Positions 43,879 to 57,815 of a DNA stretch of 64,000 bases are shown here, piece by piece. Location of the stretch: the sequence record NC_100371.1, one strand, 5' to 3'. Position 1 is the first letter of the stretch, and each line of letters starts with the position of its first letter. Made by a program: the position numbers and the translations under genes. Below the pieces are notes generated by a model that was not told the origin of the DNA, did no database searches, and saw only the letters and a program-made list of their open reading frames with translations. The DNA comes from a phage.

Positions 43879-43891
43879 ACATTAATCTTAA

Positions 43892-43914
43892 AGCCCTCTT
43901 CGGAGGGCTTTTAT
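43892..43914 (+). terminator. Rho-independent terminator
   Basis: GCCCTC-ttcg-GAGGGC followed by TTTTAT. Confidence 0.65.
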
Positions 43915-43929
43915 GATCTGGAGATTTGC

Positions 43930-44463
43930 ATGACTTGTGCTAGAAAACCTGACGAACAACGTAACGCCTATGATGAATATGTGACACCAGAGTGGTGTGC
44001 AGAAGGGTTGTATGACCTCATTCCGTTCCCAGAAGATTGGACCTATTTGGAGCCTTGCAGGAATAGCGCCTCAGGTGTGTTCTACTCCCGTATGCCGTTA
44101 GGATCTGCATGGGGAGAAATCCAAGAAGGTGTTGACTATCTGAATACAGAATACAACCATGTTGACTGTATTATCACCAACCCGCCGTACAGCCTGGCTC
44201 GTGAGTTTGTGGACAAGGCGTTGAAAGATGCCGACGTAGTTATTATGCTTTTGCGTCTTAATTTTCTGGAAAGCAAGGCCAGATTTGAATGGTGGCTTGA
44301 TAATGCCCCTACCACTGTGATCACAATATCTAAGCGTCCATCATTCCAATCGAATGGCAGAACTGACGGGCAAGCATATGCATATTTTGTGTGGGACAAG
44401 AAGAACCGTTTAGACCTACCACCATTTATGTGGTTGGCACCTCCGGAGGCAGACTTGAAATGA
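43930..44463 (+). CDS. phage-type DNA N6-adenine methyltransferase (Dam-like, orphan)
   Basis: 177 aa with IITNPPYS (NPPY) catalytic motif. Confidence 0.6.
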   Translation: MTCARKPDEQRNAYDEYVTPEWCAEGLYDLIPFPEDWTYLEPCRNSASGVFYSRMPLGSAWGEIQEGVDYLNTEYNHVDCIITNPPYSLAREFVDKALKDADVVIMLLRLNFLESKARFEWWLDNAPTTVITISKRPSFQSNGRTDGQAYAYFVWDKKNRLDLPPFMWLAPPEADLK

Positions 44464-44744
44464 AAATGAGTGCTAAGGACAAGTTGCACCAGTTAGCGCT
44501 AAAACGTCCTGTAACTCTCCCTGACGAGCTTAACTCCATTTATGATGCGATTGTAGGGGAGATACAAAATAAGGCGTTAGCAGGCTTTCTGGGATGCGGA
44601 TTTTCGATAAATCTTCCATCACACCTCTCAGACTACTTCCCACACATCGTTGGGGATTTGAGGGCAGGAGGTCTGCAGGTGGATGTTGTTGGCATCTCCC
44701 CGGAGAAAAATAACACAGTTGCCTACTTGACAGTGACCTGGTAG
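44460..44744 (+). CDS. hypothetical protein
   Basis: ATG 44460 overlaps upstream stop (ATGA); MKMSAKDKLHQ... Confidence 0.35.
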   Translation: MKMSAKDKLHQLALKRPVTLPDELNSIYDAIVGEIQNKALAGFLGCGFSINLPSHLSDYFPHIVGDLRAGGLQVDVVGISPEKNNTVAYLTVTW

Positions 44745-44779
44745 TAGTGTATTTTGTTTTCAACAAGAGGGGGTCATCT

Positions 44780-45019
44780 ATGTATAAGTCATTTTCAATT
44801 TACTCAAGACAGGCAAAACACTACACAGAGATTCTGATCACTCAGAAAAAATCTGTGGAAGGTGAGTGGGAATATCATCATAAAATGTTGCGTCCAGACT
44901 GGGTTTTTGATAGGCTTATTGCTATGATCCCTCTTGGAGAAGTATACCCTCTGACAGGTCATAGGGATGCTTGGGATTTAATTGACTATATAGATTCATT
45001 TAAGGAGCCTAGATTATGA
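44780..45019 (+). CDS. hypothetical protein
   Basis: ATG 44780 with AGAGGGGG RBS (MYKSFSIYSRQ...). Confidence 0.35.
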   Translation: MYKSFSIYSRQAKHYTEILITQKKSVEGEWEYHHKMLRPDWVFDRLIAMIPLGEVYPLTGHRDAWDLIDYIDSFKEPRL

Positions 45020-45414
45020 AGATTGAGATTACTGAAGAAGGTAAGAAAGTCTCTGGTAACTATGCAACAGTTATCCGTGATGTAATGTTCGAAGTCACTA
45101 AGATTGGCACATCCAAGGTTGGTCAAACGGTGAGTGTGCAAGGTAATATCACCTCAGGAGAGAAGATATTCATCGTGATAAAAGGCCAGGATCCTGTAGA
45201 AGGGACAGTTGGACGTGGTGGATACTTGTGTATCTCTGAAGAGCCTCGCATGCTAGTTGCTGATAACTCCACAGGTAAAAAGCGAGTATGTAACACGGAC
45301 GAGGTGATGATTATCTATCCAGTCAACCCGGATGATCCGGCAACATGGATTGTGGGAAATGAAATCTTCTCTTTAGAAGAGTTATCCTTCCCAGCTCCGC
45401 GATCTGTTCAGTAA
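45016..45414 (+). CDS. hypothetical protein
   Basis: 132-aa ORF, AAGGAG RBS. Confidence 0.4.
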   Translation: MKIEITEEGKKVSGNYATVIRDVMFEVTKIGTSKVGQTVSVQGNITSGEKIFIVIKGQDPVEGTVGRGGYLCISEEPRMLVADNSTGKKRVCNTDEVMIIYPVNPDDPATWIVGNEIFSLEELSFPAPRSVQ

Positions 45415-45453
45415 TAATTTATCTTACCAGGGACGGTAAAAGCAGGAGGTAGC

Positions 45454-45687
45454 ATGAAAGTTAAATTTCTTACAGATTTAGGGTACCCTTCCTTGGTTGA
45501 CTGCGTTGGTAAAATTGTGGAAGCAAAACGGCTATCTGCAAACGATAATGTTGTCATGGTTAAGGGAAAAGATTTACTAGCTGCAGGTGCAGAGTCTGGC
45601 AGGATCTCTCCTGACTATACGTATTACCTGTCTTTAAGTAATCTACCAGAACGAGGCGGCAAAGGCCTTGAAGTTGTGGAGGAGTGA
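45454..45687 (+). CDS. small acidic protein, paralogous family member
   Basis: MKVKFL... N-terminus, DLLAAGA motif, C-terminal LEVVEE; shared with ORFs at 49111 and 49325. Confidence 0.5.
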   Translation: MKVKFLTDLGYPSLVDCVGKIVEAKRLSANDNVVMVKGKDLLAAGAESGRISPDYTYYLSLSNLPERGGKGLEVVEE

Positions 45688-46229
45688 CAGGTATGCTTCT
45701 GATTAACTGGGAAGACCTCTATGGGGACAAAGACCCTGTTGCGTTTGTTGATCGTAGGTGGAGGTACACTGAAGAACAACTGGCTGCAAAAAATTTAACT
45801 GCAAAACGCAGAAAGATCATCCAGTGCAAGTACAAATACGCACAGTTTGCTGCAAAAGTGTCTCCACAAATCGAGAGTTTTGTACTTAAATTGTATGACG
45901 AGTACCTCAAATTCAAATTGGATTTTGTACAGGTATACCGTGCACAGGTACGTCCAGATACCAACATCTGCAGATGGAAGGTTGTTTGTGATGGTAAAGA
46001 TTTGCCGCTCAGTTTGACAATTGAGTGGCGTTGGGGGTATCATGAGTGCGGTTTGTATGATATTTGGGATGTCATTGTAGATCCTGCTAAGTACCTGAAC
46101 ACAGAGGAGCTGGAATATATCAATAAGGTTATTCTAGATATGTTTTTCAGCTACACCCATGAAAACTCTGAGAAAGAACGGGATAATTTTCTTGACACCC
46201 TCGGCAACCACCTGCAGTGTACAATTTAA
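45684..46229 (+). CDS. hypothetical protein
   Basis: 181-aa ORF. Confidence 0.4.
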   Translation: MTGMLLINWEDLYGDKDPVAFVDRRWRYTEEQLAAKNLTAKRRKIIQCKYKYAQFAAKVSPQIESFVLKLYDEYLKFKLDFVQVYRAQVRPDTNICRWKVVCDGKDLPLSLTIEWRWGYHECGLYDIWDVIVDPAKYLNTEELEYINKVILDMFFSYTHENSEKERDNFLDTLGNHLQCTI

Positions 46230-46247
46230 CCTACAAAGGAGGAGCCA

Positions 46248-46484
46248 ATGAGTATAGATGCTGTGCTGATAGGTTACCTGGTAGTAGCTGTTATAACAGC
46301 AGTAATCTTGGCAGGTATATGCATCGTGTCTACACGAAGGGTGAAGTTTGATGATTTTATCACCATCATCACTGCTGCGCCCTTTTGGCCTGTTGTTATC
46401 TTCATCGTAATAATGTGCCTAGTTGATTACCACAAGAATATCCGTAAGGAGAAAAAGGAGAGTAGGGATGGATACCGCACCTAA
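46248..46484 (+). CDS. small membrane protein (two predicted TM helices)
   Basis: 78 aa, hydrophobic segments LIGYLVVAVITAVILAGICIV and AAPFWPVVIFIVIMCLV, basic C-terminus. Confidence 0.45.
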   Translation: MSIDAVLIGYLVVAVITAVILAGICIVSTRRVKFDDFITIITAAPFWPVVIFIVIMCLVDYHKNIRKEKKESRDGYRT

Positions 46485-46620
46485 AACTGTTTATACTGTT
46501 CTTAAAGAGATTGCGTTCTACGCAGATCTTAGCCGGGCACCTTTATGGGAAAAGAATATGTATTTAAAATGGTGCGTGAAATTAGGGGGGCCTTCTAATG
46601 TTTCAAGCCATGTTTATTGA
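46468..46620 (+). CDS. hypothetical small protein
   Basis: Internal ATG 46468 with AAGGAGA RBS (MDTAPKTVYTVLKE...). Confidence 0.3.
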   Translation: MDTAPKTVYTVLKEIAFYADLSRAPLWEKNMYLKWCVKLGGPSNVSSHVY

Positions 46621-46703
46621 AATGCTCTCTGGGGTATTACTGCTGGTAGCCATTTTGGGTGGCGCGGCACTGATGTATAATTATCTTGAAAAAGGGGACA
46701 GTA

Positions 46704-46889
46704 ATGACAAAAAATAAATCCTTAGAACAGGCTGAAAACCTTCTCCACGAGCTGGTAAAGGAGTGGAAAGTTGAATACTCAGATTTTAATGCAAGAGAGG
46801 GGGAAGATTATTGGCCTACAGAGCGCTCAGAGGGAGAGTGGTATCAAGATTTCATAGAATGGCTATATCAGACGTGCGATGAGGGGTGA
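46704..46889 (+). CDS. hypothetical small protein
   Basis: ATG 46704 after AAAGGGGA (MTKNKSLEQAENLL...). Confidence 0.35.
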   Translation: MTKNKSLEQAENLLHELVKEWKVEYSDFNAREGEDYWPTERSEGEWYQDFIEWLYQTCDEG

Positions 46890-47347
46890 CGATGTTTGTT
46901 AAATATGTAAAAACGTGCCTCAACAACCTTGGTAGAGAGCATTGGTACACACTGCTTGAAAAAGGAGAAATTTTAACAAAATCTGGAAAGATAACTTTGA
47001 TACCTTTGGACGATAAAGACCCGTCACTACTTGTCATAGATGATTACGTTACAGGTGTGTCGTACGAGGTATCTGTGGAGAGGTTAATACGCAGATCTGG
47101 AGGTCCTTATGACCGAAGAGAGTATGTTTTCGATTCCGTTACAGAGAAGGAAGATCCGTCCCTAATGTTTAGAATGGTAATCAGGGATATGAAATCATCT
47201 ATAAATAGGATCGTAAAGGACATTAAGGAGCCTTTTAGGGTAAAAGTTAAGAAGTTTTTTGATTCTAAGATCAACATACTCGCCGTTGTGCTAGGCGTAA
47301 TTCAACTTCTGTTAATTTTGCACTATTTTGAACTGTTGTTTAAGTAA
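46886..47347 (+). CDS. hypothetical protein with C-terminal hydrophobic helix
   Basis: 153-aa ORF; C-terminal ILAVVLGVIQLLLILHYF. Confidence 0.4.
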   Translation: MTMFVKYVKTCLNNLGREHWYTLLEKGEILTKSGKITLIPLDDKDPSLLVIDDYVTGVSYEVSVERLIRRSGGPYDRREYVFDSVTEKEDPSLMFRMVIRDMKSSINRIVKDIKEPFRVKVKKFFDSKINILAVVLGVIQLLLILHYFELLFK

Positions 47348-47407
47348 TGTGCATTATGGCACAAAGGATGTGCCATAATTAAATAAACTAAGAAAGAGGT
47401 AGAGAGA

Positions 47408-47755
47408 ATGTCAAAGATTAAATCGATATTAATGTGGGTGGCTGTTGTAGCTTTTGTAGGATACTGGACTTGGGAAACTGAATTAAAAGATATTGGGTAT
47501 ACCAGCCTTGAGAGCAAGGCGTGCATTGGCATAACCGATGCATTCAGGCAGAATGCTATGGATCACGAATGTGTCGATGCAGATATAGATGAGAAACTGT
47601 CTAAGGACAAAGATTTTTACCATGGTCATGCCTTGCTTGATAGTGGTGACACTGTGGAATTCTGGTCGTGGTTCCGTGAAGATGGGACAATAAAGACAGC
47701 AGTAAAGATTTCCAACAAAGAGTTGATGCTGTTGCAGCAGAAGGAGGTGCAATGA
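47408..47755 (+). CDS. hypothetical protein with N-terminal signal/TM segment
   Basis: 115-aa ORF; N-terminal ILMWVAVVAFVGYW; AGAGGTAGAGAGA RBS. Confidence 0.4.
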   Translation: MSKIKSILMWVAVVAFVGYWTWETELKDIGYTSLESKACIGITDAFRQNAMDHECVDADIDEKLSKDKDFYHGHALLDSGDTVEFWSWFREDGTIKTAVKISNKELMLLQQKEVQ

Positions 47756-48039
47756 TCTGGATATCCTACGCTGATGGCACCATGCTGTATACTGCAGGTA
47801 CTAGATATGAAGTTAAGGAGGACGATAAAAAATTTATCGTAAAAACATTTGACAAGGACGACAACCTTTTGCTAGAATTGACTTACAAGGTTGGGGATGT
47901 ATCTAGCATCCAATTAGATTGCGGTCATAAAGATAACCCGCTCAAGAAACCTGGGGTAGGTAAAGCTTCAGAAGAACGCCTGTCTCGTATTGCAGAAAGC
48001 GTTTCTGCACAAAAATCTAAAAAGGGGACTAGAAAATGA
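47752..48039 (+). CDS. hypothetical protein
   Basis: 95-aa ORF, overlapping stop/start. Confidence 0.35.
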   Translation: MIWISYADGTMLYTAGTRYEVKEDDKKFIVKTFDKDDNLLLELTYKVGDVSSIQLDCGHKDNPLKKPGVGKASEERLSRIAESVSAQKSKKGTRK

Positions 48040-48230
48040 AAAACTTACATTTTAACACTTATTACTACAACACTTTGAATGATTTGTATTATATTGTTCG
48101 AAGTAAAAATCCTGAAACAGTCCTATTCTGCCGCGAACCTTTCAAAGGAGAGGAAGTGGAGTCTGAGATGAATGTTAGCCAGATTACCTCTTTGTTGCTC
48201 TCAGGTGCAATGGAAGAAGCAATATTCTAA
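48036..48230 (+). CDS. hypothetical protein
   Basis: 64-aa ORF, overlapping stop/start. Confidence 0.3.
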   Translation: MKNLHFNTYYYNTLNDLYYIVRSKNPETVLFCREPFKGEEVESEMNVSQITSLLLSGAMEEAIF

Positions 48231-48248
48231 ACCAGGCGGGAGGGTTTT

Positions 48249-48434
48249 ATGAAGCACTATTGTCTGTCTGGTAGGATGGGGGTGGATTGTGATTGGGTTT
48301 TCTTAAAACTTGTCAGCGTTCGAGAGTCCATCCCAGAGGAAGAGCAAGAAAGTGAGCTGATGTCATGGATCAACTATTACGGCAACACTTTCCGGCATGT
48401 CAAAATGGAAGAGCTGCCAAACGAGGCTGATTGA
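48249..48434 (+). CDS. hypothetical protein
   Basis: 61-aa ORF. Confidence 0.3.
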   Translation: MKHYCLSGRMGVDCDWVFLKLVSVRESIPEEEQESELMSWINYYGNTFRHVKMEELPNEAD

Positions 48435-48529
48435 TTATGGTCGCATCAATATTAACGTTTATGGGTGGCGTGGCATTCGGATTCATTCTTTGTCTGTTTA
48501 TAGTTATCATGGCTATGCGAGGCTGAATT

Positions 48530-48814
48530 ATGAAACTGTTCGAGTGGTTTAAAAAGTTTAAATACCAGGCTGTTGCTGTATCGAAATGGACCGTCCGCTG
48601 GGTGGACGATGATGGAACACAAATTCCCGGTGATCAGGATACCGGATACTGGGTTATGATGGAGAACGGATTTGGGAAAAGGAAGTTTAAATGTGTTGGT
48701 GCTCCTACTCTTTTAAATGTTAGAAGTGTGCCAGGGTACAGCACTATGGTTGTTTGGGAGCTATCCGGTGTTCCTCCTGCTAATGTGCAATATCTGCCAA
48801 ACCAAGAAAAATAA
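48530..48814 (+). CDS. hypothetical protein
   Basis: 94-aa ORF. Confidence 0.35.
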   Translation: MKLFEWFKKFKYQAVAVSKWTVRWVDDDGTQIPGDQDTGYWVMMENGFGKRKFKCVGAPTLLNVRSVPGYSTMVVWELSGVPPANVQYLPNQEK

Positions 48815-48826
48815 AAGGAGAAGATA

Positions 48827-49111
48827 ATGAGCAATGGTGTTAGCAATAGTGCTGCAGAGTTTAAAGTGATCTGTAAAGGAACTTATTGGATAGTGAAACA
48901 GAAAGTGTACCTATTCGGTTTCATACCGTTTTGGCAGAGATTTTGCTGGGGAGCTAACGAGCTTAAGAGATACGCAACCAAGGCTATGGCACTTATTGGT
49001 ATAGCTGAATACATTGCTGCCAGGGACAGAGAGGGTAAAACTTGTTACTACACTGCTGACGAGATTCGTAACAGTGTTTACGTTCCACAACCGCCCGATG
49101 GAGACCGCTGA
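48827..49111 (+). CDS. hypothetical protein
   Basis: 94-aa ORF, AAGGAGAAGA RBS. Confidence 0.4.
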   Translation: MSNGVSNSAAEFKVICKGTYWIVKQKVYLFGFIPFWQRFCWGANELKRYATKAMALIGIAEYIAARDREGKTCYYTADEIRNSVYVPQPPDGDR

Positions 49112-49335
49112 TGAAAGTTAAAGTTTTAGATTCAAGCTTCTATATTGGTCAGGAGCCCTTAGTGGGGAAAGTGTTTACCGCTATCCCTAACGAAGATTAT
49201 CCTGACCTTTTAAAAATAAAAGGTGCAGATCTTATTGCCGCTGGTGCATCCCAGGAATGCTTTGACAGTCAGTGGACCTACAACTTTGCCCTAGGAGAGG
49301 ATGTGGAGATAGTGGAGGACGATCATGAAGGTTAA
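49111..49335 (+). CDS. small acidic protein, paralogous family member
   Basis: MKVKVLDSSFYIGQ..., DLIAAGA, C-terminal EIVEDD. Confidence 0.5.
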   Translation: MKVKVLDSSFYIGQEPLVGKVFTAIPNEDYPDLLKIKGADLIAAGASQECFDSQWTYNFALGEDVEIVEDDHEG

Positions 49336-49579
49336 AATTCTTGACTCTAACGTCTACTTGGGACAATCCTTCCTGAAAGGAAAGGTAGTACCTGCTGTAT
49401 ACTTCGAAGGGTTGCCGTGGGACGATCCTGTGCGGCAAAATCACAGCCATGTAGGCCACAATGTGGTGTTCATCTTGGGATCAGACCTGATCGCGGCTGG
49501 TGCCCCGGAATATTATTTCGGAGAGGACTCGTATTATGCCTTTGGGGCAGGGTCAGATGCAGATATTTTAGAGCTGTGA
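49325..49579 (+). CDS. small acidic protein, paralogous family member
   Basis: MKVKILDSNVYLGQ..., DLIAAGA, C-terminal DILEL; tandem to 49111. Confidence 0.5.
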   Translation: MKVKILDSNVYLGQSFLKGKVVPAVYFEGLPWDDPVRQNHSHVGHNVVFILGSDLIAAGAPEYYFGEDSYYAFGAGSDADILEL

Positions 49580-49591
49580 TGGGGAACTGTT

Positions 49592-49990
49592 GTGAAAAAT
49601 AAACTGTTCAAAGTTACAATGAAAATTCGCGGAGCTTGGAGCGTAAAGCAAGGGCGTATCCCCGAATTTGAGAAAGACTTCTACGTAGTCTCCACCTCGG
49701 AGGAGGCTGCATGCTGGCAGGCTGGCTATGCCTATGCAAGAACCTGGTACGAAGGATACCAGACTGGAGGCTATGACGGAGAAATTGTCAGTAAGGGTGT
49801 GGAAGAAATTAATGTGTTGACAAGTGAAAAAGTTTTTGTTATAGTGCATCCAGATTCCAGAGTGAAGCATTACTGGAATGCCAGAACAAAAACCTGGACA
49901 CCGTTTGCAGATTCTGCTACACCACTTTTAAACCAGAAAGCTCTTGACTCTGCCCCAAGCTATGGGGTTGTTGAAGAAAAGATAAGCTGA
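49592..49990 (+). CDS. hypothetical protein (paralogue of 51797-52192)
   Basis: VHPDSRVKHYWNARTKTWTP vs RHPHSNIAYYWDVLNNEWTP in 51797 ORF. Confidence 0.45.
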   Translation: MKNKLFKVTMKIRGAWSVKQGRIPEFEKDFYVVSTSEEAACWQAGYAYARTWYEGYQTGGYDGEIVSKGVEEINVLTSEKVFVIVHPDSRVKHYWNARTKTWTPFADSATPLLNQKALDSAPSYGVVEEKIS

Positions 49991-50007
49991 AATAGTGGGG
50001 TGCTTAC

Positions 50008-50298
50008 ATGATGGATTTAGTTTTGGACGCTGATAACACCGGATCGTTTAAAAAAGATGGTGTAATAAGCATGGACCAATCCTGCGATGTCAAGATTGAC
50101 TCAAAATGGACCTACAAGTTTGACGGTGAGATCTTCGCAAATGATGAGAAGGTCGTGGATGCTGTAGCCATTTTAAACGCTTTAGGGTATGACCCTGTGA
50201 ACTCATTGATCAAGGATCCTGTTGAGTTTGCAGAGTATGTTCGTAAAATGGCAGATCTTGCAGTAGATATTTTAAAAACTATCGACAACAAGTTGTAA
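50008..50298 (+). CDS. hypothetical protein
   Basis: 96-aa acidic ORF. Confidence 0.4.
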   Translation: MMDLVLDADNTGSFKKDGVISMDQSCDVKIDSKWTYKFDGEIFANDEKVVDAVAILNALGYDPVNSLIKDPVEFAEYVRKMADLAVDILKTIDNKL

Positions 50299-50304
50299 AA
50301 ACTG

Positions 50305-50333
50305 TTGACACAACGCTTCAGATTTAGTATCAT
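50305..50333 (+). promoter_or_regulatory. sigma70-like promoter (TTGACA-N17-TATCAT) upstream of hpf-like gene
   Basis: TTGACA at 50305-50310, TATCAT at 50328-50333. Confidence 0.55.
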
Positions 50334-50379
50334 TGTTTTCAAAGAGGGGTTGGTCCCTCTTCTTTAAAAGGAACACATT

Positions 50380-50697
50380 ATGCAAATTGAAATCACTGGC
50401 AACGTAGAGATCACTGAAGGTATGGTGTCTTTCATTTCCAACAAAATGTCCAAGCTGGAGCGTTTGCACCCCTCTGCCAACTATGCACGTGTGAGTGTAA
50501 AAGTTGAAAATGATCACCAGGAAGTTATGGCTTTCATTTTTGACACTTCTGGAAAAGAAGTTATCGCCAAAGCTAAAGGTAGTGATGCTTACGAGGCAAC
50601 TGACCGTATGGTAGATGTTGCAGCACGCCAGTTGGCTAAGTGTGGTGGAAAGAAAGGTAAGGGAAAAGGCAAAGTAAAGATTGACTTTTTAGATTAA
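50380..50697 (+). CDS. hpf: ribosome hibernation promoting factor / RaiA (YfiA) family protein
   Basis: MQIEITGNVEITEGMVSFISNKMSKLERL...AKGSDAYEATDRMVDVAARQLAK collinear with bacterial HPF/YfiA (MQLNITG...DMYAAIDGLIDKLARQL); Lys/Gly-rich tail. Confidence 0.65.
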   Translation: MQIEITGNVEITEGMVSFISNKMSKLERLHPSANYARVSVKVENDHQEVMAFIFDTSGKEVIAKAKGSDAYEATDRMVDVAARQLAKCGGKKGKGKGKVKIDFLD

Positions 50698-50834
50698 GGT
50701 GCTACAATGGGCACGATTAAGAAATTAATCCCAAATGTGGAGATTGCATGCTTTGAAATTATGTTTGCAATCGCAGTTGTAGTTAATGTGTTAGGTTACG
50801 GCTATTAATATCAAATAATTGAGGAGACCTCTAA

Positions 50835-51104
50835 ATGAAAATTAAATTATTCCAAACTGAGCTGGCAGACAAAAACTGTGGACTGGTTGAAGGCATGATC
50901 GTTGAAGCACAACCAGTTGACTACATGAAGGTGGTTCGTGATGCCCTGGGTGAAGGTTTTGATCTGATGGAGCCAGCTCTGCGAGAAGATGTCATCGAAA
51001 TGGCTAAAAAGCACACACCGGAAGGTTTGGTAGTGTTTGTTGCTCCAGGTAATGGAGAGGAGTTGATTGTAACTCCGGATGTGTATGAGGTTGTAGAAGA
51101 GTAA
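50835..51104 (+). CDS. small acidic protein, paralogous family member
   Basis: MKIKLFQ... N-terminus and C-terminal YEVVEE. Confidence 0.45.
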   Translation: MKIKLFQTELADKNCGLVEGMIVEAQPVDYMKVVRDALGEGFDLMEPALREDVIEMAKKHTPEGLVVFVAPGNGEELIVTPDVYEVVEE

Positions 51105-51196
51105 TCCTGCTTGGGTTGGAATACTTTCCTCGACAAGAAAGGTTTATAATTATTTGTGGGAAAGGAATCCCCATCTCTTACCAGAGGTGATACTAT

Positions 51197-51460
51197 ATGA
51201 TTGTTTATTTTAAAACTTCAGGTGGATACCCTGATTCTCAAAGCTTGATTGGAAAAACGTGCACAGCATACTCACCTCTTGATGAGGAGGTAAGTGGTAT
51301 CCTACGAGATATGTATCGGATTGATCCACAAGAAGCTTTTGATCAAAACCTTGTATTTGTCAAGGGATCAGACATAAAGTCTTTGGGGGCATTCCCTGAA
51401 GCAGATGATGATGCTGTTTATTCGTTTATGACACCTTTTGAAGCTATGGTTGTGGGGTAA
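51197..51460 (+). CDS. small acidic protein, paralogous family member
   Basis: VKGSDIKSLGAF motif resembling KGADLIAAGA of 49111. Confidence 0.4.
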   Translation: MIVYFKTSGGYPDSQSLIGKTCTAYSPLDEEVSGILRDMYRIDPQEAFDQNLVFVKGSDIKSLGAFPEADDDAVYSFMTPFEAMVVG

Positions 51461-51464
51461 GAAT

Positions 51465-51797
51465 ATGAAAGTACGCTTTATTGGTGAAACAATTCCTGTG
51501 CATCTCCGGTCTCCTGAAGACTCTGCAGATCTTGCATCTCAAAAGGCGAGAGGGTATGATAAGAAAGTGATCTCAAGCAATGTAGAGCTTGAGGCCACCA
51601 GTCTGCCTGACCCAGCTGCATTCTTCAATCATTATGGCTACTATTTTAGCAATCTGATGAATATTGGTGAGCTTGTGTTTATTAGTGGTGGAGAGATAGT
51701 TAGCAAGCTTGGTGGAGATCCGGATATCTTTCATGAAACCTGTCCTTTTGCATTTGTGGTGGGTTCAGATGTGGAAGTTATTGAGGAGGTTCGGTAA
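51465..51797 (+). CDS. small acidic protein, paralogous family member
   Basis: Start at internal ATG (MKVRFIGE...), C-terminal VEVIEEVR. Confidence 0.4.
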   Translation: MKVRFIGETIPVHLRSPEDSADLASQKARGYDKKVISSNVELEATSLPDPAAFFNHYGYYFSNLMNIGELVFISGGEIVSKLGGDPDIFHETCPFAFVVGSDVEVIEEVR

Positions 51798-52192
51798 TGG
51801 TAAGTCTATACCGTGTTGAGTATAGCTCGGATACTGTATACAACGTAAGAAGCAAAGATCGCAGTGATAGAGTGCAAGAAATGTATGTTCTTGCAGATAG
51901 TCCGTTATCTGCAGCGTTCAAGGCAGGAGCTCTTGCATCTCGTTGGAAATTTGAGGGTGGATCTTTCTATGAAGAAACCCTTGAAGATTCTGTTGTTATT
52001 TCTTCTGTAGAGGTTTCAACCGACTACGAAGGGAAAAAGTTCGTAATGCGGCACCCACACAGCAATATTGCGTACTACTGGGATGTTCTGAACAATGAGT
52101 GGACCCCTGATCTTCAGAAGGCCACTGTTCTAACCCCATTCCTGGCAGATAAGTTCCCACCAGAAGGTAATTTATCTGCACTGTTTCAGTAA
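51797..52192 (+). CDS. hypothetical protein (paralogue of 49592-49990)
   Basis: Shared RHPHSNIAYYWDVLNNEWTP block. Confidence 0.45.
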   Translation: MVSLYRVEYSSDTVYNVRSKDRSDRVQEMYVLADSPLSAAFKAGALASRWKFEGGSFYEETLEDSVVISSVEVSTDYEGKKFVMRHPHSNIAYYWDVLNNEWTPDLQKATVLTPFLADKFPPEGNLSALFQ

Positions 52193-52210
52193 TTTTATGC
52201 CACACAGGTG

Positions 52211-52239
52211 TTGACAACACCAACCCTGTGTGCAATAAT
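52211..52239 (+). promoter_or_regulatory. candidate sigma70-like promoter (TTGACA-N17-AATAAT) inside an inverted repeat
   Basis: TTGACA at 52211-52216; flanked by CACACAGG/CCTGTGTG inverted repeat. Confidence 0.4.
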
Positions 52240-52268
52240 ACCTTCATCTTAACAAGATAGGAGACCGA

Positions 52269-52529
52269 TTGATGAAGATTAAATTGAAAAACCTTGAAAC
52301 GGCAGAGATTCAGGAAGGTGTTGATTTCCGTTCTAAAGATGGAGACATCCTAGAGGCGAATGTCCCGACATATAAGTTGATTAAAGGTTTTGGCAACGTT
52401 CCGGAGGAGGATATTACAGACATTCTTATGATGTTGATCCTTGACGGGACTGTGTTTGTAGGTGAAGGTGAGAACGCTATTGCAATCCCGAGCCATTTTT
52501 ATGAAGTAGTTGACGAAGAGGTGCTGTAA
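52269..52529 (+). CDS. small acidic protein, paralogous family member
   Basis: MMKIKLKNLE..., C-terminal YEVVDEEVL. Confidence 0.45.
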   Translation: MMKIKLKNLETAEIQEGVDFRSKDGDILEANVPTYKLIKGFGNVPEEDITDILMMLILDGTVFVGEGENAIAIPSHFYEVVDEEVL

Positions 52530-52880
52530 ATGAAAGTAGAGATCACAGGTTTTGATATGAATGCGGTTCCGGAAGATATTTTAGCTAAACTCCCGGAAGG
52601 TTTTGGTAACGGTGTTGTGGTTGATGCTGTTCCTCCTACCAAAGACATCCTGCTGCAGTATGGTGTGGCAGAGGAAGATGTTGATAAAGTTCTTACAATG
52701 ATGGCAATCGACCGTGTTGTCGTTGTTAAAGGTCTTGAAGGTTTTGATAACGATCCTCTGATTATTCGTGGTGATGACTATCGCATCATCGACAACGAAG
52801 GCCAAGAGTTCTACGAACCTTCTGCTGAAGATGTTCTTAACTTACTACTGGAAGCAGGCACCGAAGAGGAGGAAGAATAA
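52530..52880 (+). CDS. small acidic protein, paralogous family member
   Basis: MKVEITGFD..., acidic C-terminus TEEEEE. Confidence 0.45.
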   Translation: MKVEITGFDMNAVPEDILAKLPEGFGNGVVVDAVPPTKDILLQYGVAEEDVDKVLTMMAIDRVVVVKGLEGFDNDPLIIRGDDYRIIDNEGQEFYEPSAEDVLNLLLEAGTEEEEE

Positions 52881-53209
52881 TGAAAATTGATCCGTTACTG
52901 AAGGCTCGTGCAGAAAAAGCATACACTATCAAGCTGACCTCTCTGGTCCCTACTTGTCATCCGGATGTAGGTTGGCCTGAAGGCTTGGTAGAGGGGACTG
53001 TAACAGCTGCATACCTTCCTAACATCAAATACCTCATGGAGATCTTGGAGATGGATGAGGAAACGGCAGAACAGTTCCAGTTAGACATGAAGCAAAGTGG
53101 GACTCTGGTTATTCACGGGTGGTATAATACTAAAGATGCAGAAGATCCCCTGGTAACTTCTAATCTGGCATATGAGATCTTAGGGCCTTTGAACTTGGGG
53201 GAAGACTAA
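52880..53209 (+). CDS. small acidic protein, probable family member
   Basis: MKIDPLLKA..., tandem position, similar size and composition. Confidence 0.4.
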   Translation: MKIDPLLKARAEKAYTIKLTSLVPTCHPDVGWPEGLVEGTVTAAYLPNIKYLMEILEMDEETAEQFQLDMKQSGTLVIHGWYNTKDAEDPLVTSNLAYEILGPLNLGED

Positions 53210-53496
53210 TGAAAGATTTGGTTAAGATCAAGATTAAAGACACCAATGGAGAACTCAGCCATTTTGGAATTAACGATGGTGACGAGCTGATCGCCCACCT
53301 GCCTACCAAGGAAGTTGTAAGCAAAGCGGTTGCCGGAGAAGAAGATGCAATGCAGGCTGCAGGTGTGGATGAAAACTATGTAGCAATGTGTATGTGCCGA
53401 GATCAGGTTGTTCTGTATAAAGCGTATCGACCAAATGGAGCACCTGAGTGGCTTGTTTTCCGACCAGAAGGGTATGAAATTTTAGAGACGCTATGA
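53209..53496 (+). CDS. small acidic protein, probable family member
   Basis: MKDLVKIKIKD..., C-terminal YEILETL. Confidence 0.4.
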   Translation: MKDLVKIKIKDTNGELSHFGINDGDELIAHLPTKEVVSKAVAGEEDAMQAAGVDENYVAMCMCRDQVVLYKAYRPNGAPEWLVFRPEGYEILETL

Positions 53497-53585
53497 TAAA
53501 TCCTGCCAAGGTTGCAACGGCACTGTTAATTATTTGCTGGATAGTGACCTTGGCACTATGTCTTGTATTTCATTAAGGGGGCTGT

Positions 53586-53849
53586 ATGAACATCTTGGTG
53601 TGGGTTGTAGCAGTAGCGTTTGTTGCGTGCCTCTCTTGTTGGGTTGCTGTGAGGATTTCTATAGCCACTCTTCGGAAATTAGGGTTCTCAGAGTGGGATA
53701 TTGATATCCTTTCTTTTCGCAATGAGACAATCTCAGCCGCCCTGCTGTGTAAGAAGTTTAAGTGGGAACCTTGTGAGGTCATGAACTATCTAAGAACAGG
53801 AGATATTCCTGAGAGATTTAAAAAAGTTCTTGACGGCAAAGACAAATGA
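53586..53849 (+). CDS. small membrane protein
   Basis: N-terminal TM segment ILVWVVAVAFVACLSCWVAV, 87 aa. Confidence 0.4.
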   Translation: MNILVWVVAVAFVACLSCWVAVRISIATLRKLGFSEWDIDILSFRNETISAALLCKKFKWEPCEVMNYLRTGDIPERFKKVLDGKDK

Positions 53850-54004
53850 TAGTATAGTGACTAACAAGAGGTGAGGAATGACTGATTTTACTGAAGCTTT
53901 AATGATGGCCTTATCTGTTTTAGCGCTATCGGTGTGTTTTGGGGCGTTATTCACATCTCTAGTTAAAGTTTTACATACCATATTCTCACCCAAGGAGCAC
54001 AGTA

Positions 54005-54256
54005 ATGACGAAGATTGACTTAAATGCTGGCGACCATGTTGTTGTCAAATGCATCGGGGATTATCTTGGATTCACAATCGGCAATACTTACGAGGCAGTG
54101 GTGGCGAAGGTTTATCATGATAAAGTCCTTAGCCTTGTATTTGACTGCGATGATGACGGAGATGACCGTTACGTCTGTGAGGTGCTGGCACGTGACGATA
54201 GTGAAGACCAGAAATTCCTGGTTATCGAACTGAACGGTATTTTTGTAGAACGTTAA
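54005..54256 (+). CDS. hypothetical protein
   Basis: 83-aa acidic ORF with AAGGAG RBS. Confidence 0.4.
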   Translation: MTKIDLNAGDHVVVKCIGDYLGFTIGNTYEAVVAKVYHDKVLSLVFDCDDDGDDRYVCEVLARDDSEDQKFLVIELNGIFVER

Positions 54257-54284
54257 TTTAAAACAATATAAGGAGACTCTTACT

Positions 54285-54590
54285 ATGGCTAAATCTAAAG
54301 TTGAACTGTTCACCTCTCTTCCTTCTGACATTGCAGAGCGTGATCGCCTCCGTAAAACAATTGAAGAGCTGGTGGAACTTCAGCTTCAGATTAAAGATCT
54401 GAAAGACGCTATCAAGGATATTATTCTTGTCGAGAAACAGGATCACCTGTACTCTCCTAAGTTTATCAAGTCTTTGGTGGCTACCGAATTCGATATCCGC
54501 TACGAAGCTGAAAAACGTCGGGCTAAAATCGAAGAAGAGGTTGAGCACATGTCTGAAGCAGACATTCTGTTCAAACGCTCTGCAGAATAA
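54285..54590 (+). CDS. hypothetical protein
   Basis: 101-aa charged helical ORF with AAGGAGA RBS, followed by terminator. Confidence 0.45.
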   Translation: MAKSKVELFTSLPSDIAERDRLRKTIEELVELQLQIKDLKDAIKDIILVEKQDHLYSPKFIKSLVATEFDIRYEAEKRRAKIEEEVEHMSEADILFKRSAE

Positions 54591-54594
54591 CGAC

Positions 54595-54622
54595 AAAGAG
54601 GGGCCTTGGCCCCTCTTTTTTA
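54595..54622 (+). terminator. Rho-independent terminator
   Basis: GAGGGGCC-tt-GGCCCCTC followed by TTTTTTACT. Confidence 0.65.
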
Positions 54623-54644
54623 CTATCTATGAAGGAGATCAGAG

Positions 54645-54971
54645 ATGCTAATGCCGGTTACTGTAAAAGAGCTAAATGAACGTGATGCAGGGGGCCTGTG
54701 GCCTGCACGGAAAATACGCTGCGTCTATATGAAAGAGAATCTTGAGCACCTTGATCAGCAGATTGCGGTTGGTGATATTTTCGAAGTTCTCTATTCTAAT
54801 CGTCGCAACTGGGAAACCATTCAACCTTCCGGTTTTGTTCTTGCCAGACTTGATACTGGAGAAGTGATTATCCCTGGGCTGGACATTGTCTTCGAAATTA
54901 TCCAGGAGTGGGATCCTGATAAGATTAAATATGAAGAGTTATTCGGTGAAGGTATTATCAAACCTGTGTGA
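54645..54971 (+). CDS. hypothetical protein
   Basis: 108-aa ORF, GAAGGAGA RBS. Confidence 0.4.
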   Translation: MLMPVTVKELNERDAGGLWPARKIRCVYMKENLEHLDQQIAVGDIFEVLYSNRRNWETIQPSGFVLARLDTGEVIIPGLDIVFEIIQEWDPDKIKYEELFGEGIIKPV

Positions 54972-55279
54972 GGTGGATTATGTCTACAACGACAGCTAAA
55001 TACTCCTATATGCCAGCAACCTCAGCAGAAATAGACTTCAGTTTCGATGTGTTTCCATTGTTTGAGGTGGTTCTGGCATACCCAACAATACTATCTACTC
55101 CTGAATCCCTTGTACCTGTTAAGTTGCAGAACGCTATGCACTCCATGCACTACAACAATAAATGTAGGCACAGATGGTGTCAAGACGAGGAAAAAGATCT
55201 GGAGAGTTTGAAAGATTTTGACAGTCACCTTTTGACACCTTTTAGTTACTCAAACCTAGACAAGCCTTCATGGGTATAG
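54968..55279 (+). CDS. hypothetical protein
   Basis: 103-aa ORF overlapping upstream stop. Confidence 0.35.
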   Translation: MRWIMSTTTAKYSYMPATSAEIDFSFDVFPLFEVVLAYPTILSTPESLVPVKLQNAMHSMHYNNKCRHRWCQDEEKDLESLKDFDSHLLTPFSYSNLDKPSWV

Positions 55280-55492
55280 CAAAGTATCAAATTTAAGGCA
55301 CATAGGACGCTCTGTGGCGTCCTTTTCTTTATCCGGTGAACGATTCCATACCTTAAGCAGTTAATCTCATTACAGAGCGTTTAAGGGCGGCTTACAAGCA
55401 ACTCTCTATTTCGAGCGTAGCGAGAACGCACGTCCGTTTTGACCAAAATCACCATACGCTCGGATTTTAACCAAACCCTCGCGGCGCTTCTG

Positions 55493-55521
55493 TTGACACA
55501 TTACCGCTCCTGTGATAGTAT
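55493..55521 (+). promoter_or_regulatory. sigma70-like promoter (TTGACA-N17-TAGTAT)
   Basis: TTGACA at 55493-55498, TAGTAT at 55516-55521. Confidence 0.45.
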
Positions 55522-55553
55522 CCGCACATCGTTTGAAGAATATGGGATACACA

Positions 55554-55634
55554 ATGAAAACATTGTCAGAGGTTTTAGTGGTGATCCTGATAATCATTGC
55601 GTCCATAGCGGCTGTTGCCGGAATATGCTTATAG
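55554..55634 (+). CDS. small hydrophobic peptide (26 aa, single TM-like helix)
   Basis: MKTLSEVLVVILIIIASIAAVAGICL about 30 nt downstream of the promoter; weak RBS. Confidence 0.3.
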   Translation: MKTLSEVLVVILIIIASIAAVAGICL

Positions 55635-55709
55635 CATCGACACGTTCCAGCCATATGTCGATAAAGTCTTATTTTTTAAACATGTTGCCGGAATACTCAC
55701 GGGTGGAAC

Positions 55710-55895
55710 ATGACCAACACACATGCATCTAAAGAGACATCTGAAGGGGTGACAGAGGAAAACTTCAATTCTGAGGATTCTCTATCTCCGTCCCAGGTGG
55801 ACCCTGAGGCTGATGACCTGACGTGGGAGGATATCATAGCCATCTGGTTCTCTATTATGCCTGAGCACGAAGAGTTCAGAGGTGGGAGACTATGA
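55710..55895 (+). CDS. hypothetical acidic small protein
   Basis: 61-aa ORF. Confidence 0.3.
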   Translation: MTNTHASKETSEGVTEENFNSEDSLSPSQVDPEADDLTWEDIIAIWFSIMPEHEEFRGGRL

Positions 55896-56015
55896 AGCAC
55901 CGAGCCCACATAAGTTTATCATGCTAAAGCATGGCCTGAAGGGGCAAACGTGTATAATTCTAGCGTATTGGAACGTATAAACCCTGTTCACACTCTCATT
56001 TCCAGAGGAGATTTC

Positions 56016-57760: not shown

Positions 57761-57815
57761 CTGTTTACGCATAGACTGTTTACGCCTGAATAGTTTACGC
57801 AAAAACTGTTTACAC
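57761..57815. repeat. tandem array of four CTGTTTACGC-like 10-mers with 15-bp periodicity
   Basis: Copies at 57761, 57776, 57791 (tagtttacgc), 57806 (ctgtttacac); further isolated copies at 57471 and 58217. Confidence 0.65.

What the first reader, a model, noticed from the sequence alone, without database searches (positions are those of the whole stretch)
45454..53496. Tandem array of about ten paralogous small acidic proteins
ORFs at 45454, 49111, 49325, 50835, 51197, 51465, 52269, 52530, 52880 and 53209 are 74-116 aa, begin MK(V/I)K(V/I/F)... and end in acidic (Y/L)E(V/I)VEE-like tails. Several share an internal DLIAAGA block. The clearest trio is 45454, 49111 and 49325. Diversifying small-protein families of this kind in phage early regions are typical of host-takeover or anti-defence factors, each copy possibly tuned to a different host target.
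Basis: seen in the sequence. Interest (0 to 1): 0.65.

Follow-up and report, generated by a model that had tools for sequence, protein, structure and literature searches.

The report
Two small barrel-protein families in a phage
An rV5-like E. coli phage carries ten small acidic early genes that form two five-member families with the same predicted SH3-like barrel fold; their function is unknown, but published transposon data show that one cluster containing two of them is needed only to infect a particular clinical E. coli strain.

Summary
The window is a Vequintavirus (rV5-like E. coli myophage). All ten ORFs are real genes. They are annotated CDS in more than 100 genomes, and dN/dS against an ortholog set is 0.02-0.16.

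They are not one demonstrable family of ten. They split into two sequence families of five:
- Group A: 45454, 49111, 49325, 51197, 51465. It carries the GxDLIAAGA motif and corresponds to phrog_5009 and relatives.
- Group B: 50835, 52269, 52530, 52880, 53209. It was found only in Vequintavirus.

In leave-one-out HMM tests every member is recovered as the top hit among 680 window ORFs, even with the first 8 residues removed.

AlphaFold models of one member per group (pLDDT 92 and 93) are both five-strand SH3-like barrels. The A-B sequence link is weak and comes largely from the N-terminal strand.

Group A is a wider uncurated phage family with no Pfam model. It occurs in lambdoid prophages, T4-like and T1-like phages.

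All ten proteins are acidic. They lie among near-consensus sigma-70 promoters.

Published phage Tn-seq on Bas54 finds all ten dispensable in E. coli K-12. Insertions in the orthologs of 51197, 51465 and the adjacent gene X2 are lost completely in the uropathogenic isolate CFE311.

Best reading: early accessory binder proteins, some acting as host-specific (probably counter-defence) factors. The mechanism is unproven.

The parts
45454..45687 (+). Group A member, 77 aa (ortholog of bas54_0166)
   Evidence: Matches phrog_5009 at E 2.5e-36. Leave-one-out HMM E 3.1e-9. dN/dS 0.10.
49111..49335 (+). Group A member, 74 aa (ortholog of bas54_0159). This is the sequence modelled for group A.
49325..49579 (+). 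Group A member, 84 aa (ortholog of bas54_0158). Its start overlaps the previous gene by 11 nt.
   Evidence: Matches phrog_5009 at E 1.1e-31. hhalign to 49111 gives 99.5% probability.
51197..51460 (+). Divergent group A member, 87 aa (ortholog of bas54_0152)
   Evidence: An HMM built from the trio finds it at E 3.4e-6. Leave-one-out E 2.6e-5. In Bas54, Tn insertions are lost in CFE311: log2FC -7.16, adjusted p 0.
51465..51797 (+). Divergent group A member, 110 aa, with a long insertion between strands 1 and 3 (ortholog of bas54_0151)
   Evidence: Leave-one-out E 3.5e-6. hhalign to 49325 gives 91% probability. In Bas54, Tn insertions are lost in CFE311: log2FC -6.17.
50835..51104 (+). Group B member, 89 aa (ortholog of bas54_0153). 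This is the sequence modelled for group B.
52272..52529 (+). Group B member, 85 aa. The ATG is at 52272; an upstream TTG lies at 52269 (ortholog of bas54_0149).
   Evidence: Leave-one-out E 6.5e-8. phmmer against 52530 gives E 4.4e-4.
52530..52880 (+). Group B member, 116 aa, with an extra acidic C-terminal tail (ortholog of bas54_0148)
   Evidence: Leave-one-out E 4.5e-8. Net charge -21.
52880..53209 (+). Group B member, 109 aa, with an N-terminal extension (ortholog of bas54_0147). Its start overlaps the previous stop codon by 1 nt.
   Evidence: Leave-one-out E 6e-3, improving to 6.8e-5 with N-termini removed.
53209..53496 (+). Group B member, 95 aa (ortholog of bas54_0146). Its start overlaps the previous stop codon by 1 nt.
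   Evidence: Leave-one-out E 6.8e-5. hhalign to 50835 aligns 84 columns.
49592..49990 (+). X1, a member of a second paralog family (phrog_7379). It directly follows the group A pair 49111/49325. Ortholog of bas54_0157.
   Evidence: BLASTP of X1 against X2 gives E 3e-9. Matches phrog_7379. log2FC -2.14, adjusted p 0, in CFE311.
51797..52192 (+). X2, the paralog of X1. It directly follows the group A pair 51197/51465. Ortholog of bas54_0150.
   Evidence: In Bas54, Tn insertions are lost in CFE311: log2FC -6.77. The family was found only in Vequintavirus.
50681..50708 (+). Sigma-70-like promoter (10 of 12 matches, TG-extended) upstream of 50835
52211..52239 (+). Near-consensus sigma-70-like promoter (11 of 12 matches), intergenic, upstream of the four contiguous group B genes

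Best explanation
**What it is**
- The ten genes are two lineage-expanded families, five members each, of small acidic single-domain proteins.
- Both families are built on a five-stranded SH3-like beta-barrel.
- Group A carries a conserved GGY-x-G loop and a G-x-(D/E)-L-I-x-x-G-A helix after strand 3.
- Group B carries a three-helix insert between strands 2 and 3.

**How it arose**
- Old duplications produced the set, including duplication of an A-A-X cassette (49111-49990 and 51197-52192).
- Each copy has since been kept under purifying selection.

**How it most likely works**
- The genes are transcribed from host-type promoters, probably early.
- Many are translationally coupled to their neighbours.
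- They are dispensable in a laboratory host.
- The most likely mode of action is stoichiometric protein binding. Each copy would use its variable loops or inserts to bind and block, or redirect, a different host protein or host defence protein.
- At least the 51197-51465-X2 cluster behaves as a host-specific infection factor, required in uropathogenic E. coli CFE311. A counter-defence role is the leading reading.

**Shown versus inferred**
- Shown: gene reality, the two families, the predicted fold of one member per family, the distribution, the selection regime, and the Tn-seq phenotypes (from a preprint supplement).
- Inferred: early timing, protein-binding mode, counter-defence role, and common ancestry of A and B.
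For: **Identity and families**
- The block is 99.5% identical to Vequintavirus vB_EcoM-ECP32.
- Two families are supported by in-window HMM iteration, pairwise hhalign and leave-one-out tests, with and without N-termini.
- None of 23 neighbouring small ORFs matches either profile better than P=0.0047, and then only over at most 41 columns.

**Fold**
- pLDDT is 92 and 93 for the two models, with the same strand order.
- Both models hit the same SH3, KOW, PsaE and integrase C-terminal-domain structures.

**A-B link**
- hhalign P=3.4e-4 over 83 columns, with strands in register.
- No column shuffle out of 200 reaches the real score.

**Distribution of group A**
- An exhaustive HMMER search found 83 cluster representatives. 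Some have two or three domain copies in one polypeptide.
- One is fused to DUF3310, and three carry Cys-rich C-terminal regions.
- Members sit in accessory regions of unrelated phages: between the Q antiterminator and the holin in E. coli prophages, in nin-like and RecE/RecT regions, and between gene 32 and frd of T4-like Citrobacter phages.

**Cassette duplication**
- X1 and X2 are paralogs.

**Properties and expression**
- All ten are acidic.
- dN/dS is 0.02-0.16.
- Six promoters with at least 11 of 12 consensus matches lie on the coding strand, against 0.14 expected.

**Experiment (bioRxiv 10.1101/2025.11.20.689424, Extended Data Table 8)**
- In K-12 the orthologs are 'Non-essential', except bas54_0151-0153, which are 'Intermediate'.
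- In CFE311, bas54_0150, 0151 and 0152 have zero reads (log2FC -6.8, -6.2, -7.2; adjusted p 0).
- bas54_0157 (X1) has log2FC -2.1. The ortholog mapping was verified at 92-99% amino-acid identity.
- The nearby gene bas54_0140 is a reported anti-DS-28 gene.
Against: - No binding partner, defence system or biochemical activity is known for any member.
- Eight of the ten orthologs show no depletion in CFE311. bas54_0153 falls by log2FC -2.78, but this is not significant.
- The complete loss across three contiguous genes could be a polar effect on X2 alone. In that case no group A member would have a demonstrated phenotype.
- The preprint's authors did not follow up these genes. The data are from a preprint supplement, and one of its sheets is mislabelled.
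- Only two of the ten proteins were modelled.
- Strong purifying selection and universal conservation within the genus fit a housekeeping phage role as well as a counter-defence role.
- Vequintavirinae are reported to be unusually sensitive to restriction-modification (RM) and abortive-infection (Abi) systems (PMC8594841). The array therefore does not provide broad protection.
Confidence: 0.5

Rival explanations
1. The proteins are LSm/Hfq-like RNA-binding modulators of gene expression. [quoted passage not shown]
For: - They share the broad fold class, a five-strand SH3/LSm-like barrel.
- The T4 precedent is three non-essential early paralogs with this fold (PMC12152347).
- The array sits beside a phage HPF/RaiA ribosome hibernation homolog.
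- A group A member lies next to frd.2-like genes in T4-like Citrobacter phages.
Against: - All ten are strongly acidic, with pI 4.05-5.4 and net charge -1 to -21. That is unfavourable for RNA binding.
- There is no sequence similarity to T4 Frd.1, Frd.2 or Frd.3.
- No Sm or Hfq Pfam hit was found.
- RNA binding is unproven even for wild-type GoF.
Confidence: 0.12
2. The proteins serve a phage-internal role with no host target, for example as regulators or chaperones of phage enzymes or of replication. Under this reading the CFE311 phenotype belongs to X2 alone and arises from polar transposon effects in the upstream group A genes.
For: - Every copy is under strong purifying selection and is conserved across the genus.
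- The genes are translationally coupled (1-nt and 11-nt overlaps).
- bas54_0151-0153 are 'Intermediate' rather than fully non-essential in K-12.
- The depleted genes are contiguous and lie in one apparent transcription unit, between the promoters at 50681 and 52211.
Against: - Seven of the ten are classed as non-essential in K-12.
- The most upstream gene of the unit, bas54_0153, is only partly depleted, and not significantly. This argues against full polarity.
- The preprint's authors argue against widespread polar effects.
- Group A homologs occur singly in accessory regions of unrelated phages that lack X.
Confidence: 0.2
3. The proteins are acidic DNA mimics that inhibit restriction enzymes or other DNA-binding defence proteins, in the manner of Ocr, ArdA or T7 Gp5.9.
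For: - High negative charge and small size.
- Location in an early-type region.
Against: - The predicted fold is a compact SH3-like barrel, not the helical Ocr-type mimic (Ocr fold from my own knowledge, not tested here).
- Vequintavirinae are reported as exceptionally sensitive to RM systems (PMC8594841).
- The orthologs show no phenotype in K-12.
Confidence: 0.07
4. There is no real family. The resemblance comes only from a shared translation-start context (MK...) and acidic composition.
For: - The A-B signal drops by half when the first six residues are removed.
- A broader group A profile aligns to group B only over the N-terminal 29 columns, at P=0.015.
Against: - Within each group, leave-one-out HMMs recover every member as the top hit with the first 8 residues removed, with E from 2e-17 to 6e-3.
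- Control ORFs of similar size and composition do not match either profile.
- The predicted folds agree.
Confidence: 0.02

Closest known systems
PHROG families phrog_5009, phrog_13367, phrog_8603, phrog_7345, phrog_15322 (all 'unknown function')
   Same: - The group A trio matches phrog_5009 end to end, at E 1e-31 to 2e-38.
- 63 of 64 wider relatives also match phrog_5009.
- They share the same roughly 70-aa architecture: MKVKLL...GGYxGM...GxELIxxGA...YxF...EVxEE.
   Different: - These families carry no name, structure or function.
- 51197 matches phrog_5009 only weakly (E 1.6e-4); 51465 and all five group B genes do not match it. Each of these seven has its own single-genus PHROG, so the link shown here between them and phrog_5009 is not recorded there.
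T4 GoF / MotB.1 / Frd.2 family of LSm-like-fold early proteins (PMC12152347)
   Same: - Several sequence-divergent paralogs in one phage.
- Early genes that are non-essential in the laboratory.
- A five-strand SH3/LSm-like barrel predicted by AlphaFold.
- Function unknown.
   Different: - No detectable sequence similarity to T4 Frd.1, Frd.2 or Frd.3. GoF and MotB.1 were not tested.
- The T4 proteins are two-domain (N-terminal barrel plus a C-terminal domain). Nine of the ten here appear to be the barrel alone (52530 also carries a roughly 30-residue acidic C-terminal tail); two of the ten were modelled.
- The T4 set is three dispersed genes. Here there are 5+5 genes clustered within 8 kb.
SH3-like small beta-barrel fold (eukaryotic SH3, KOW of NusG/Spt5, PsaE, retroviral integrase C-terminal domain)
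   Different: - No Pfam SH3 or KOW hit was found.
- Group B has a 30-residue helical insert at the n-Src-loop position.
- Group A has a helix plus a long loop in place of the distal hairpin.
Bas54 anti-defence genes bas54_0140 and bas54_0063, reported against DS-28 (bioRxiv 10.1101/2025.11.20.689424)
   Same: - bas54_0140 lies in the same early block as the ten genes; bas54_0063 lies elsewhere in the genome.
- Dispensable in K-12.
- Depleted in the same CFE311 Tn-seq experiment as bas54_0150-0152.
   Different: - bas54_0140 (window 54980-55279) is not a member of either family.
- Its link to a defence system was confirmed by a knockout. For bas54_0150-0152 no knockout and no matched defence system is reported.

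Membership tests
phrog_5009 (uncharacterised phage protein family) | Full-length match to the family HMM | tested here: met
   - 45454, 49111 and 49325 match at E 2.5e-36, 2.1e-38 and 1.1e-31.
- 51197 matches only weakly, at E 1.6e-4.
- 51465 and all five group B genes give no match.
- 51197 and 51465 join the family through window-built and wider HMMs.
SH3-like small beta-barrel fold | Five antiparallel strands in SH3 order forming a partly open barrel | tested here: met
   - Met for the two predicted models only, 49111 and 50835 (pLDDT 92 and 93).
Eukaryotic-type SH3 domain (Pfam SH3 families) or KOW motif (PF00467) | Sequence match to the Pfam model at or above its gathering score | tested here: not met
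   None of the ten has any Pfam hit at E<=1 other than chance-level hits to unrelated families. None of 64 wider group A relatives has a hit either.
T4 GoF/MotB.1/Frd.2 LSm-like family | Sequence-profile relatedness to the N-terminal domains of GoF, MotB.1 or Frd.2 | tested here: not met
   Group A and group B HMMs score T4 Frd.1, Frd.2 and Frd.3 at -3 to +4.5 bits. GoF and MotB.1 were not retrieved, so they are untested.
T4 GoF/MotB.1/Frd.2 LSm-like family | N-terminal barrel joined by a linker to a separate C-terminal domain | tested here: not met
   The models of 49111 (74 aa) and 50835 (89 aa) are single barrels with no second domain.
HPF/RaiA 'sigma 54 modulation factor' (PF02482), the GenBank annotation of 50835 orthologs | Match to PF02482 (Ribosomal_S30AE) | tested here: not met
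   50835 has no Pfam hit. The neighbouring gene 50380-50697 does match, at E 1.2e-12 and 48.8 bits against a cut-off of 23.7. The annotation on 50835 orthologs looks like an error carried over from the neighbour.
Phage anti-defence (counter-defence) proteins | Required for infection only when a specific host defence system is present | tested here: inconclusive
   - Published Tn-seq shows bas54_0151 and bas54_0152 (with X2) are dispensable in K-12 and lost in CFE311.
- No defence system has been matched to them.
- Polarity is not excluded.
- The other eight members show no effect.
DNA-mimic anti-restriction proteins (Ocr/ArdA/Gp5.9-like) | Surface charge array that mimics DNA, and inhibition of restriction or other DNA-binding enzymes | not testable with these tools
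   Only bulk acidity could be measured (pI 4.05-5.4). The reported RM sensitivity of Vequintavirinae argues against this role.

The most novel reading that the evidence does not exclude
Group A is a widespread, still unnamed phage domain for counter-defence or host-range control. In Vequintavirus, a three-gene module made of two group A barrels plus X2 (window 51197-52192) neutralises a so far unidentified barrier in uropathogenic E. coli CFE311. The other copies, and the Vequintavirus-specific group B offshoot, would be the same scaffold retargeted to other host barriers. The array would then be a toolkit of binders on one fold.
Probability: 0.3. Interest if true: 0.65.

Novelty: new member of a known kind. 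Interest (0 to 1): 0.42.

Why it matters
- Large lytic phages considered for therapy, including rV5-like phages, carry dozens of small early genes of unknown function.
- This analysis groups ten such genes into two families that share a fold.
- It ties group A to a wider unnamed family found in T4-like and T1-like phages and in lambdoid prophages.
- It points to an existing but uninterpreted data set in which one cluster (51197, 51465, X2) is needed only in a clinical isolate.
- That gives a short, concrete list of candidates for host-range or counter-defence determinants in a poorly studied phage group.
- It also corrects a propagated mis-annotation ('sigma 54 modulation factor') on the 50835 orthologs.

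Tried and rejected
**Searches that found nothing**
- Pfam, NCBIfam and PDB sequence searches found nothing for any member or for either profile.
- tblastn of 49111 and 50835 against 50,697 phage records found only Vequintavirus.
- The search for related loci with the broad group A alignment failed because no stretch was conserved enough. It worked with a narrower alignment.
- Full-text search for 'phrog_5009' returned no paper.
- The phage accessory-gene screen preprint (10.1101/2023.04.06.535777) does not mention rV5, Vequintavirus, SH3 or paralogs.
- Searches for Vequintavirus transcriptomics gave nothing usable.
- Rfam found no RNA family in 44-60 kb.

**Ideas tested and rejected**
- One family of ten. 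In-window HMM iteration never bridges A and B. A broader group A profile aligns to B only at the N-terminus.
- Extra members among 23 neighbouring small ORFs, including 45016, 54005 and 54645. None was found.
- A link between group A and the X family outside Vequintavirus. X was found nowhere else.
- Homology to T4 Frd.2. None was found.
- bas54_0140 as a member of the array. It is the ortholog of 54980-55279, outside both families.

**Limited result**
- The BFVD fold search returned only a 95-aa vB_EcoM-ECP32 protein (taken to be the 53209 ortholog) as a convincing match. It could not link A and B.

Full report
**Source and gene reality**

The 8.6-kb block is 99.5% identical to Escherichia phage vB_EcoM-ECP32. 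It is at least 80% identical (90% or more in most) to 121 records of the genus Vequintavirus, the rV5-like myophages of about 136 kb.

They are annotated as hypothetical CDS in the BASEL phages EmilHeitz, JeffSchatz, JohannBauhin, AlexBoehm and MaxBurger.

Against EmilHeitz (88-95% nucleotide identity), each of the ten has dN/dS between 0.02 and 0.16, and the pooled pN/pS is 0.09. They are therefore real protein-coding genes. Each copy is held by purifying selection and is not currently diversifying.

tblastn finds 49111 and 50835 in all 117 matching records at 84-100% identity.

**One family or two**

All-against-all BLASTP and phmmer link 45454, 49111 and 49325 strongly. They link 51197 and 51465 to that trio weakly, and 52269 to 52530 weakly.

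An HMM built from the trio recovers 51197 (E 3.4e-6) and 51465 (E 2e-4) from all window ORFs and then stops.

Profile-profile comparison of the ortholog sets gave three results:
- Within group A, probabilities reach 85-99% between most pairs (lower for 49325-51197, and near zero for 45454-51465 and 51197-51465).
- Among 50835, 52269, 52530, 52880 and 53209, matches are weak but full length, with P from 3.5e-4 to 0.24.
- Across the two sets there is nothing significant.

Leave-one-out HMMs settle the within-group question. For every one of the ten, a profile of the other four ortholog sets ranks the left-out gene first among 680 window ORFs:
- Group A: E from 1e-20 to 2.6e-5.
- Group B: E from 4.5e-8 to 6e-3.
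- The next unrelated ORF has E above 0.1.

The same holds after deleting the first 8 residues from every sequence, with E from 2e-17 to 6e-3.

None of 23 neighbouring small ORFs matches either profile better than P=0.0047, and then only over short stretches.

- MK[VI] starts occur in 9 of 134 gene-like ORFs, and 6 of those are among the ten.
- The C-terminal x-E-[VI]-[VIL] strand occurs in 7 ORFs, all among the ten.

**Are A and B related?**

The family-level profiles align at P=3.4e-4 over 83 columns. No column shuffle out of 200 reaches the real score of 27.5.

With the first six residues removed the score falls to 13.3, and 6 of 200 shuffles reach it. A broader group A profile aligns to group B only over the N-terminal 29 columns, at P=0.015.

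AlphaFold2 models of 49111 (group A alignment, pLDDT 92) and 50835 (group B alignment, pLDDT 93) both show five strands in the same order. The strands match the columns paired by hhalign.

The two groups differ in their additions to the barrel:
- Group A has a short helix (the GxDLIAAGA motif) and a long loop after strand 3.
- Group B has a three-helix insert between strands 2 and 3.

Foldseek against BFVD matched the 50835 model to the predicted structure of a 95-aa vB_EcoM-ECP32 protein, which I take to be the 53209 ortholog, at probability 1.0 and TM 0.57.

I conclude that A and B share a predicted fold and plausibly an ancestor. This is inferred, not shown.

**Distribution**

Group B was found only in Vequintavirus: 55 clusters in a word-indexed search of 5.8 billion proteins, all orthologs, and only that genus by tblastn.

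Group A is wider. An exhaustive HMMER search of 1.84 billion representatives gave 83 clusters at E<=1e-3:
- Most are stand-alone proteins of 63-90 aa with the consensus MKVKLLxxGGYxGM...GxELIxxGA...YxF...EVxEE.
- Several have two or three copies of the domain in one polypeptide.
- One is fused to DUF3310.
- Three carry Cys-rich C-terminal regions.

None of 64 such relatives has a Pfam model. They fall into phrog_5009 and six other PHROGs of unknown function.

The genomic settings are accessory regions of unrelated phages:
- Between the Q antiterminator and the holin in E. coli lambdoid prophages. This gene is rare, present in 13 of 5,426 complete genomes.
- Beside an HTH gene in a small phage contig, where two adjacent copies occur.
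- In nin-like and RecE/RecT-Dam regions.
- Between gene 32 and frd in T4-like Citrobacter phages.
- In T1-like coliphages.

Most phages carry one copy. Five copies is the largest set seen.

**Anatomy of the array**

The gene order is: A (45454); about 3.4 kb of other small genes; A (49111); A (49325); X1; one ORF; the HPF homolog; B (50835); A (51197); A (51465); X2; B (52269); B (52530); B (52880); B (53209).

X1 and X2 are paralogs (BLASTP E 3e-9, both in phrog_7379). The family was found only in Vequintavirus. An A-A-X cassette has therefore been duplicated.

Many junctions overlap by 1 or 11 nt (coordinates), which suggests translational coupling.

All ten proteins are acidic, with pI 4.05-5.4 and net charge -1 to -21. 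The median pI of small ORFs in the window is 6.7.

Six sigma-70-type promoters with at least 11 of 12 consensus matches lie on the coding strand between 43.5 and 56.5 kb. None lies on the other strand, and 0.14 are expected. Two of the six are intergenic, upstream of the HPF gene and of 52269; a separate 10-of-12 site lies just upstream of 50835. This supports, but does not prove, early host-polymerase transcription.

**Experimental evidence from the literature**

A 2025 preprint (bioRxiv 10.1101/2025.11.20.689424) applied transposon sequencing to Bas54. I identified Bas54 as phage MaxBurger, MZ501093. I mapped its genes to the window at 92-99% amino-acid identity.

In E. coli K-12 the orthologs are classed as follows:
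- 45454, 49111, 49325, 52269, 52530, 52880 and 53209 are 'Non-essential'.
- 50835, 51197 and 51465 are 'Intermediate', with 69-73% of TA sites hit.

In the comparison of K-12 with the uropathogenic isolate CFE311:

| Bas54 gene | Window gene | log2FC | Adjusted p |
|---|---|---|---|
| bas54_0152 | 51197 | -7.2 (zero reads) | 0 |
| bas54_0151 | 51465 | -6.2 (zero reads) | 0 |
| bas54_0150 | X2 | -6.8 (zero reads) | 0 |
| bas54_0157 | X1 | -2.1 | 0 |
| bas54_0153 | 50835 | -2.8 | not significant |
| other seven members | | -0.3 to +1.0 | not significant |

The preprint does not discuss these genes. Its authors followed up only bas54_0063 and bas54_0140, which they report as required against a predicted defence system, DS-28. 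bas54_0140 is the ortholog of window 54980-55279, 1.5 kb downstream of the array, and is not a family member.

Polar effects on X2 cannot be excluded. Two points argue against full polarity: the most upstream gene of the unit is only partly depleted, and the authors argue against widespread polarity.

The two data sheets, labelled CFE303 and CFE311, contain the same CFE311 run. Only one clinical strain is therefore documented.

**Interpretation**

The best-supported reading is a set of early accessory proteins built on a small binding fold. They are dispensable in the laboratory host. At least one cluster acts as a host-specific infection factor, most simply a counter-defence module.

- Shown: the two families, the fold of one member per family, the distribution, the selection regime and the Tn-seq phenotypes.
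- Inferred: the protein-binding mechanism, early timing and counter-defence role.

Three rivals remain:
- LSm-like RNA modulators, as proposed for T4 GoF/MotB.1/Frd.2 (PMC12152347). The fold and the HPF neighbour fit. The acidity and the lack of similarity to T4 Frd.2 argue against.
- A purely phage-internal role, with the phenotype due to X2 alone.
- DNA mimicry. This is disfavoured by the fold and by the reported restriction sensitivity of Vequintavirinae (PMC8594841).

**Novelty and score**

Paralogous sets of small early proteins of unknown function are a familiar feature of large phages. A comparable SH3/LSm-like set was described in T4 in 2025. Group A already exists as unnamed PHROGs.

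Four things are new here:
- The 5+5 split with a shared predicted fold.
- The duplicated A-A-X cassette.
- The tie between the divergent copies 51197 and 51465 and a wider phage family.
- The link to an uninterpreted conditional-essentiality signal.

I rate this as a new member of a known kind, of moderate interest (0.42).

Noticed in passing
window 50380-50697 (+): The phage encodes a ribosome hibernation factor (HPF/RaiA) homolog inside the array. It matches PF02482 at E 1.2e-12, above the gathering score, and has its own near-consensus sigma-70 promoter at 50305-50333. Its Bas54 ortholog is non-essential in K-12.
   Followed up: partly
window 50835-51104 (+): Orthologs of this group B gene are annotated 'sigma 54 modulation factor' in many GenBank records. 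The protein has no Pfam hit. The name seems to have been carried over from the true HPF homolog next door.
   Followed up: yes
window 49592-49990 and 51797-52192 (+): A second paralog pair, X1 and X2 (about 131 aa, phrog_7379, BLASTP E 3e-9). Each follows a pair of group A genes, which indicates a duplicated three-gene cassette. The family was found only in Vequintavirus and has no Pfam hit. X2 is conditionally essential in CFE311, and X1 is depleted about 4-fold.
   Followed up: partly
window 54980-55279 (+): This gene is the ortholog (93% amino-acid identity) of bas54_0140, reported in a 2025 preprint as an anti-defence gene required against the predicted system DS-28 of E. coli CFE311. It has no Pfam hit and is unrelated to the two families.
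   Followed up: partly
window about 56300-58700: An ORF-poor region lies at the switch between divergently transcribed blocks. It contains iteron-like GTTTACGC repeats spaced 15 nt apart (57763-57813) and several inverted repeats (57875-58075). It corresponds to the roughly 2-kb intergenic region of Bas54 in which no transposon insertions were recovered. It may be a replication origin or a regulatory hub.
   Followed up: partly
window 43500-56500 (+): Six sigma-70-type promoters with at least 11 of 12 consensus matches, all with a perfect TTGACA, lie on the coding strand. None lies on the other strand, and 0.14 are expected from a Markov-1 null. Three of them sit inside ORFs (46014, 47849, 49817).
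   Followed up: partly
window 54595-54618: A strong bidirectional terminator-like hairpin (10-bp stem with 6 GC pairs, T-runs on both strands) follows the ORF that ends at 54590.
   Followed up: no
window 14185-15123 (-): A tRNA cluster (Pro, Met, Thr, Ser, Arg) also includes a 99-nt tRNA-like call with a four-base anticodon at 14429-14527.
   Followed up: no
related GenBank records MG0656xx: Eighteen records named 'Campylobacter phage' are more than 90% identical to this E. coli Vequintavirus block. The host attribution of those records looks doubtful.
   Followed up: no
bioRxiv 10.1101/2025.11.20.689424, Extended Data Table 8, sheets S6 and S7: The sheet headed 'K-12_vs_CFE303' contains the same command line and numbers as the CFE311 sheet. 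The CFE303 gene-level results for Bas54 are therefore not in the held file.
   Followed up: yes
window 42829-44463 (+): A ClpP-like protease gene (42829-43878) and an N6-adenine methyltransferase gene (43930-44463) lie just upstream of the array, as annotated in related phages. The Bas54 ClpP-like gene is classed as 'Intermediate' in K-12.
   Followed up: no
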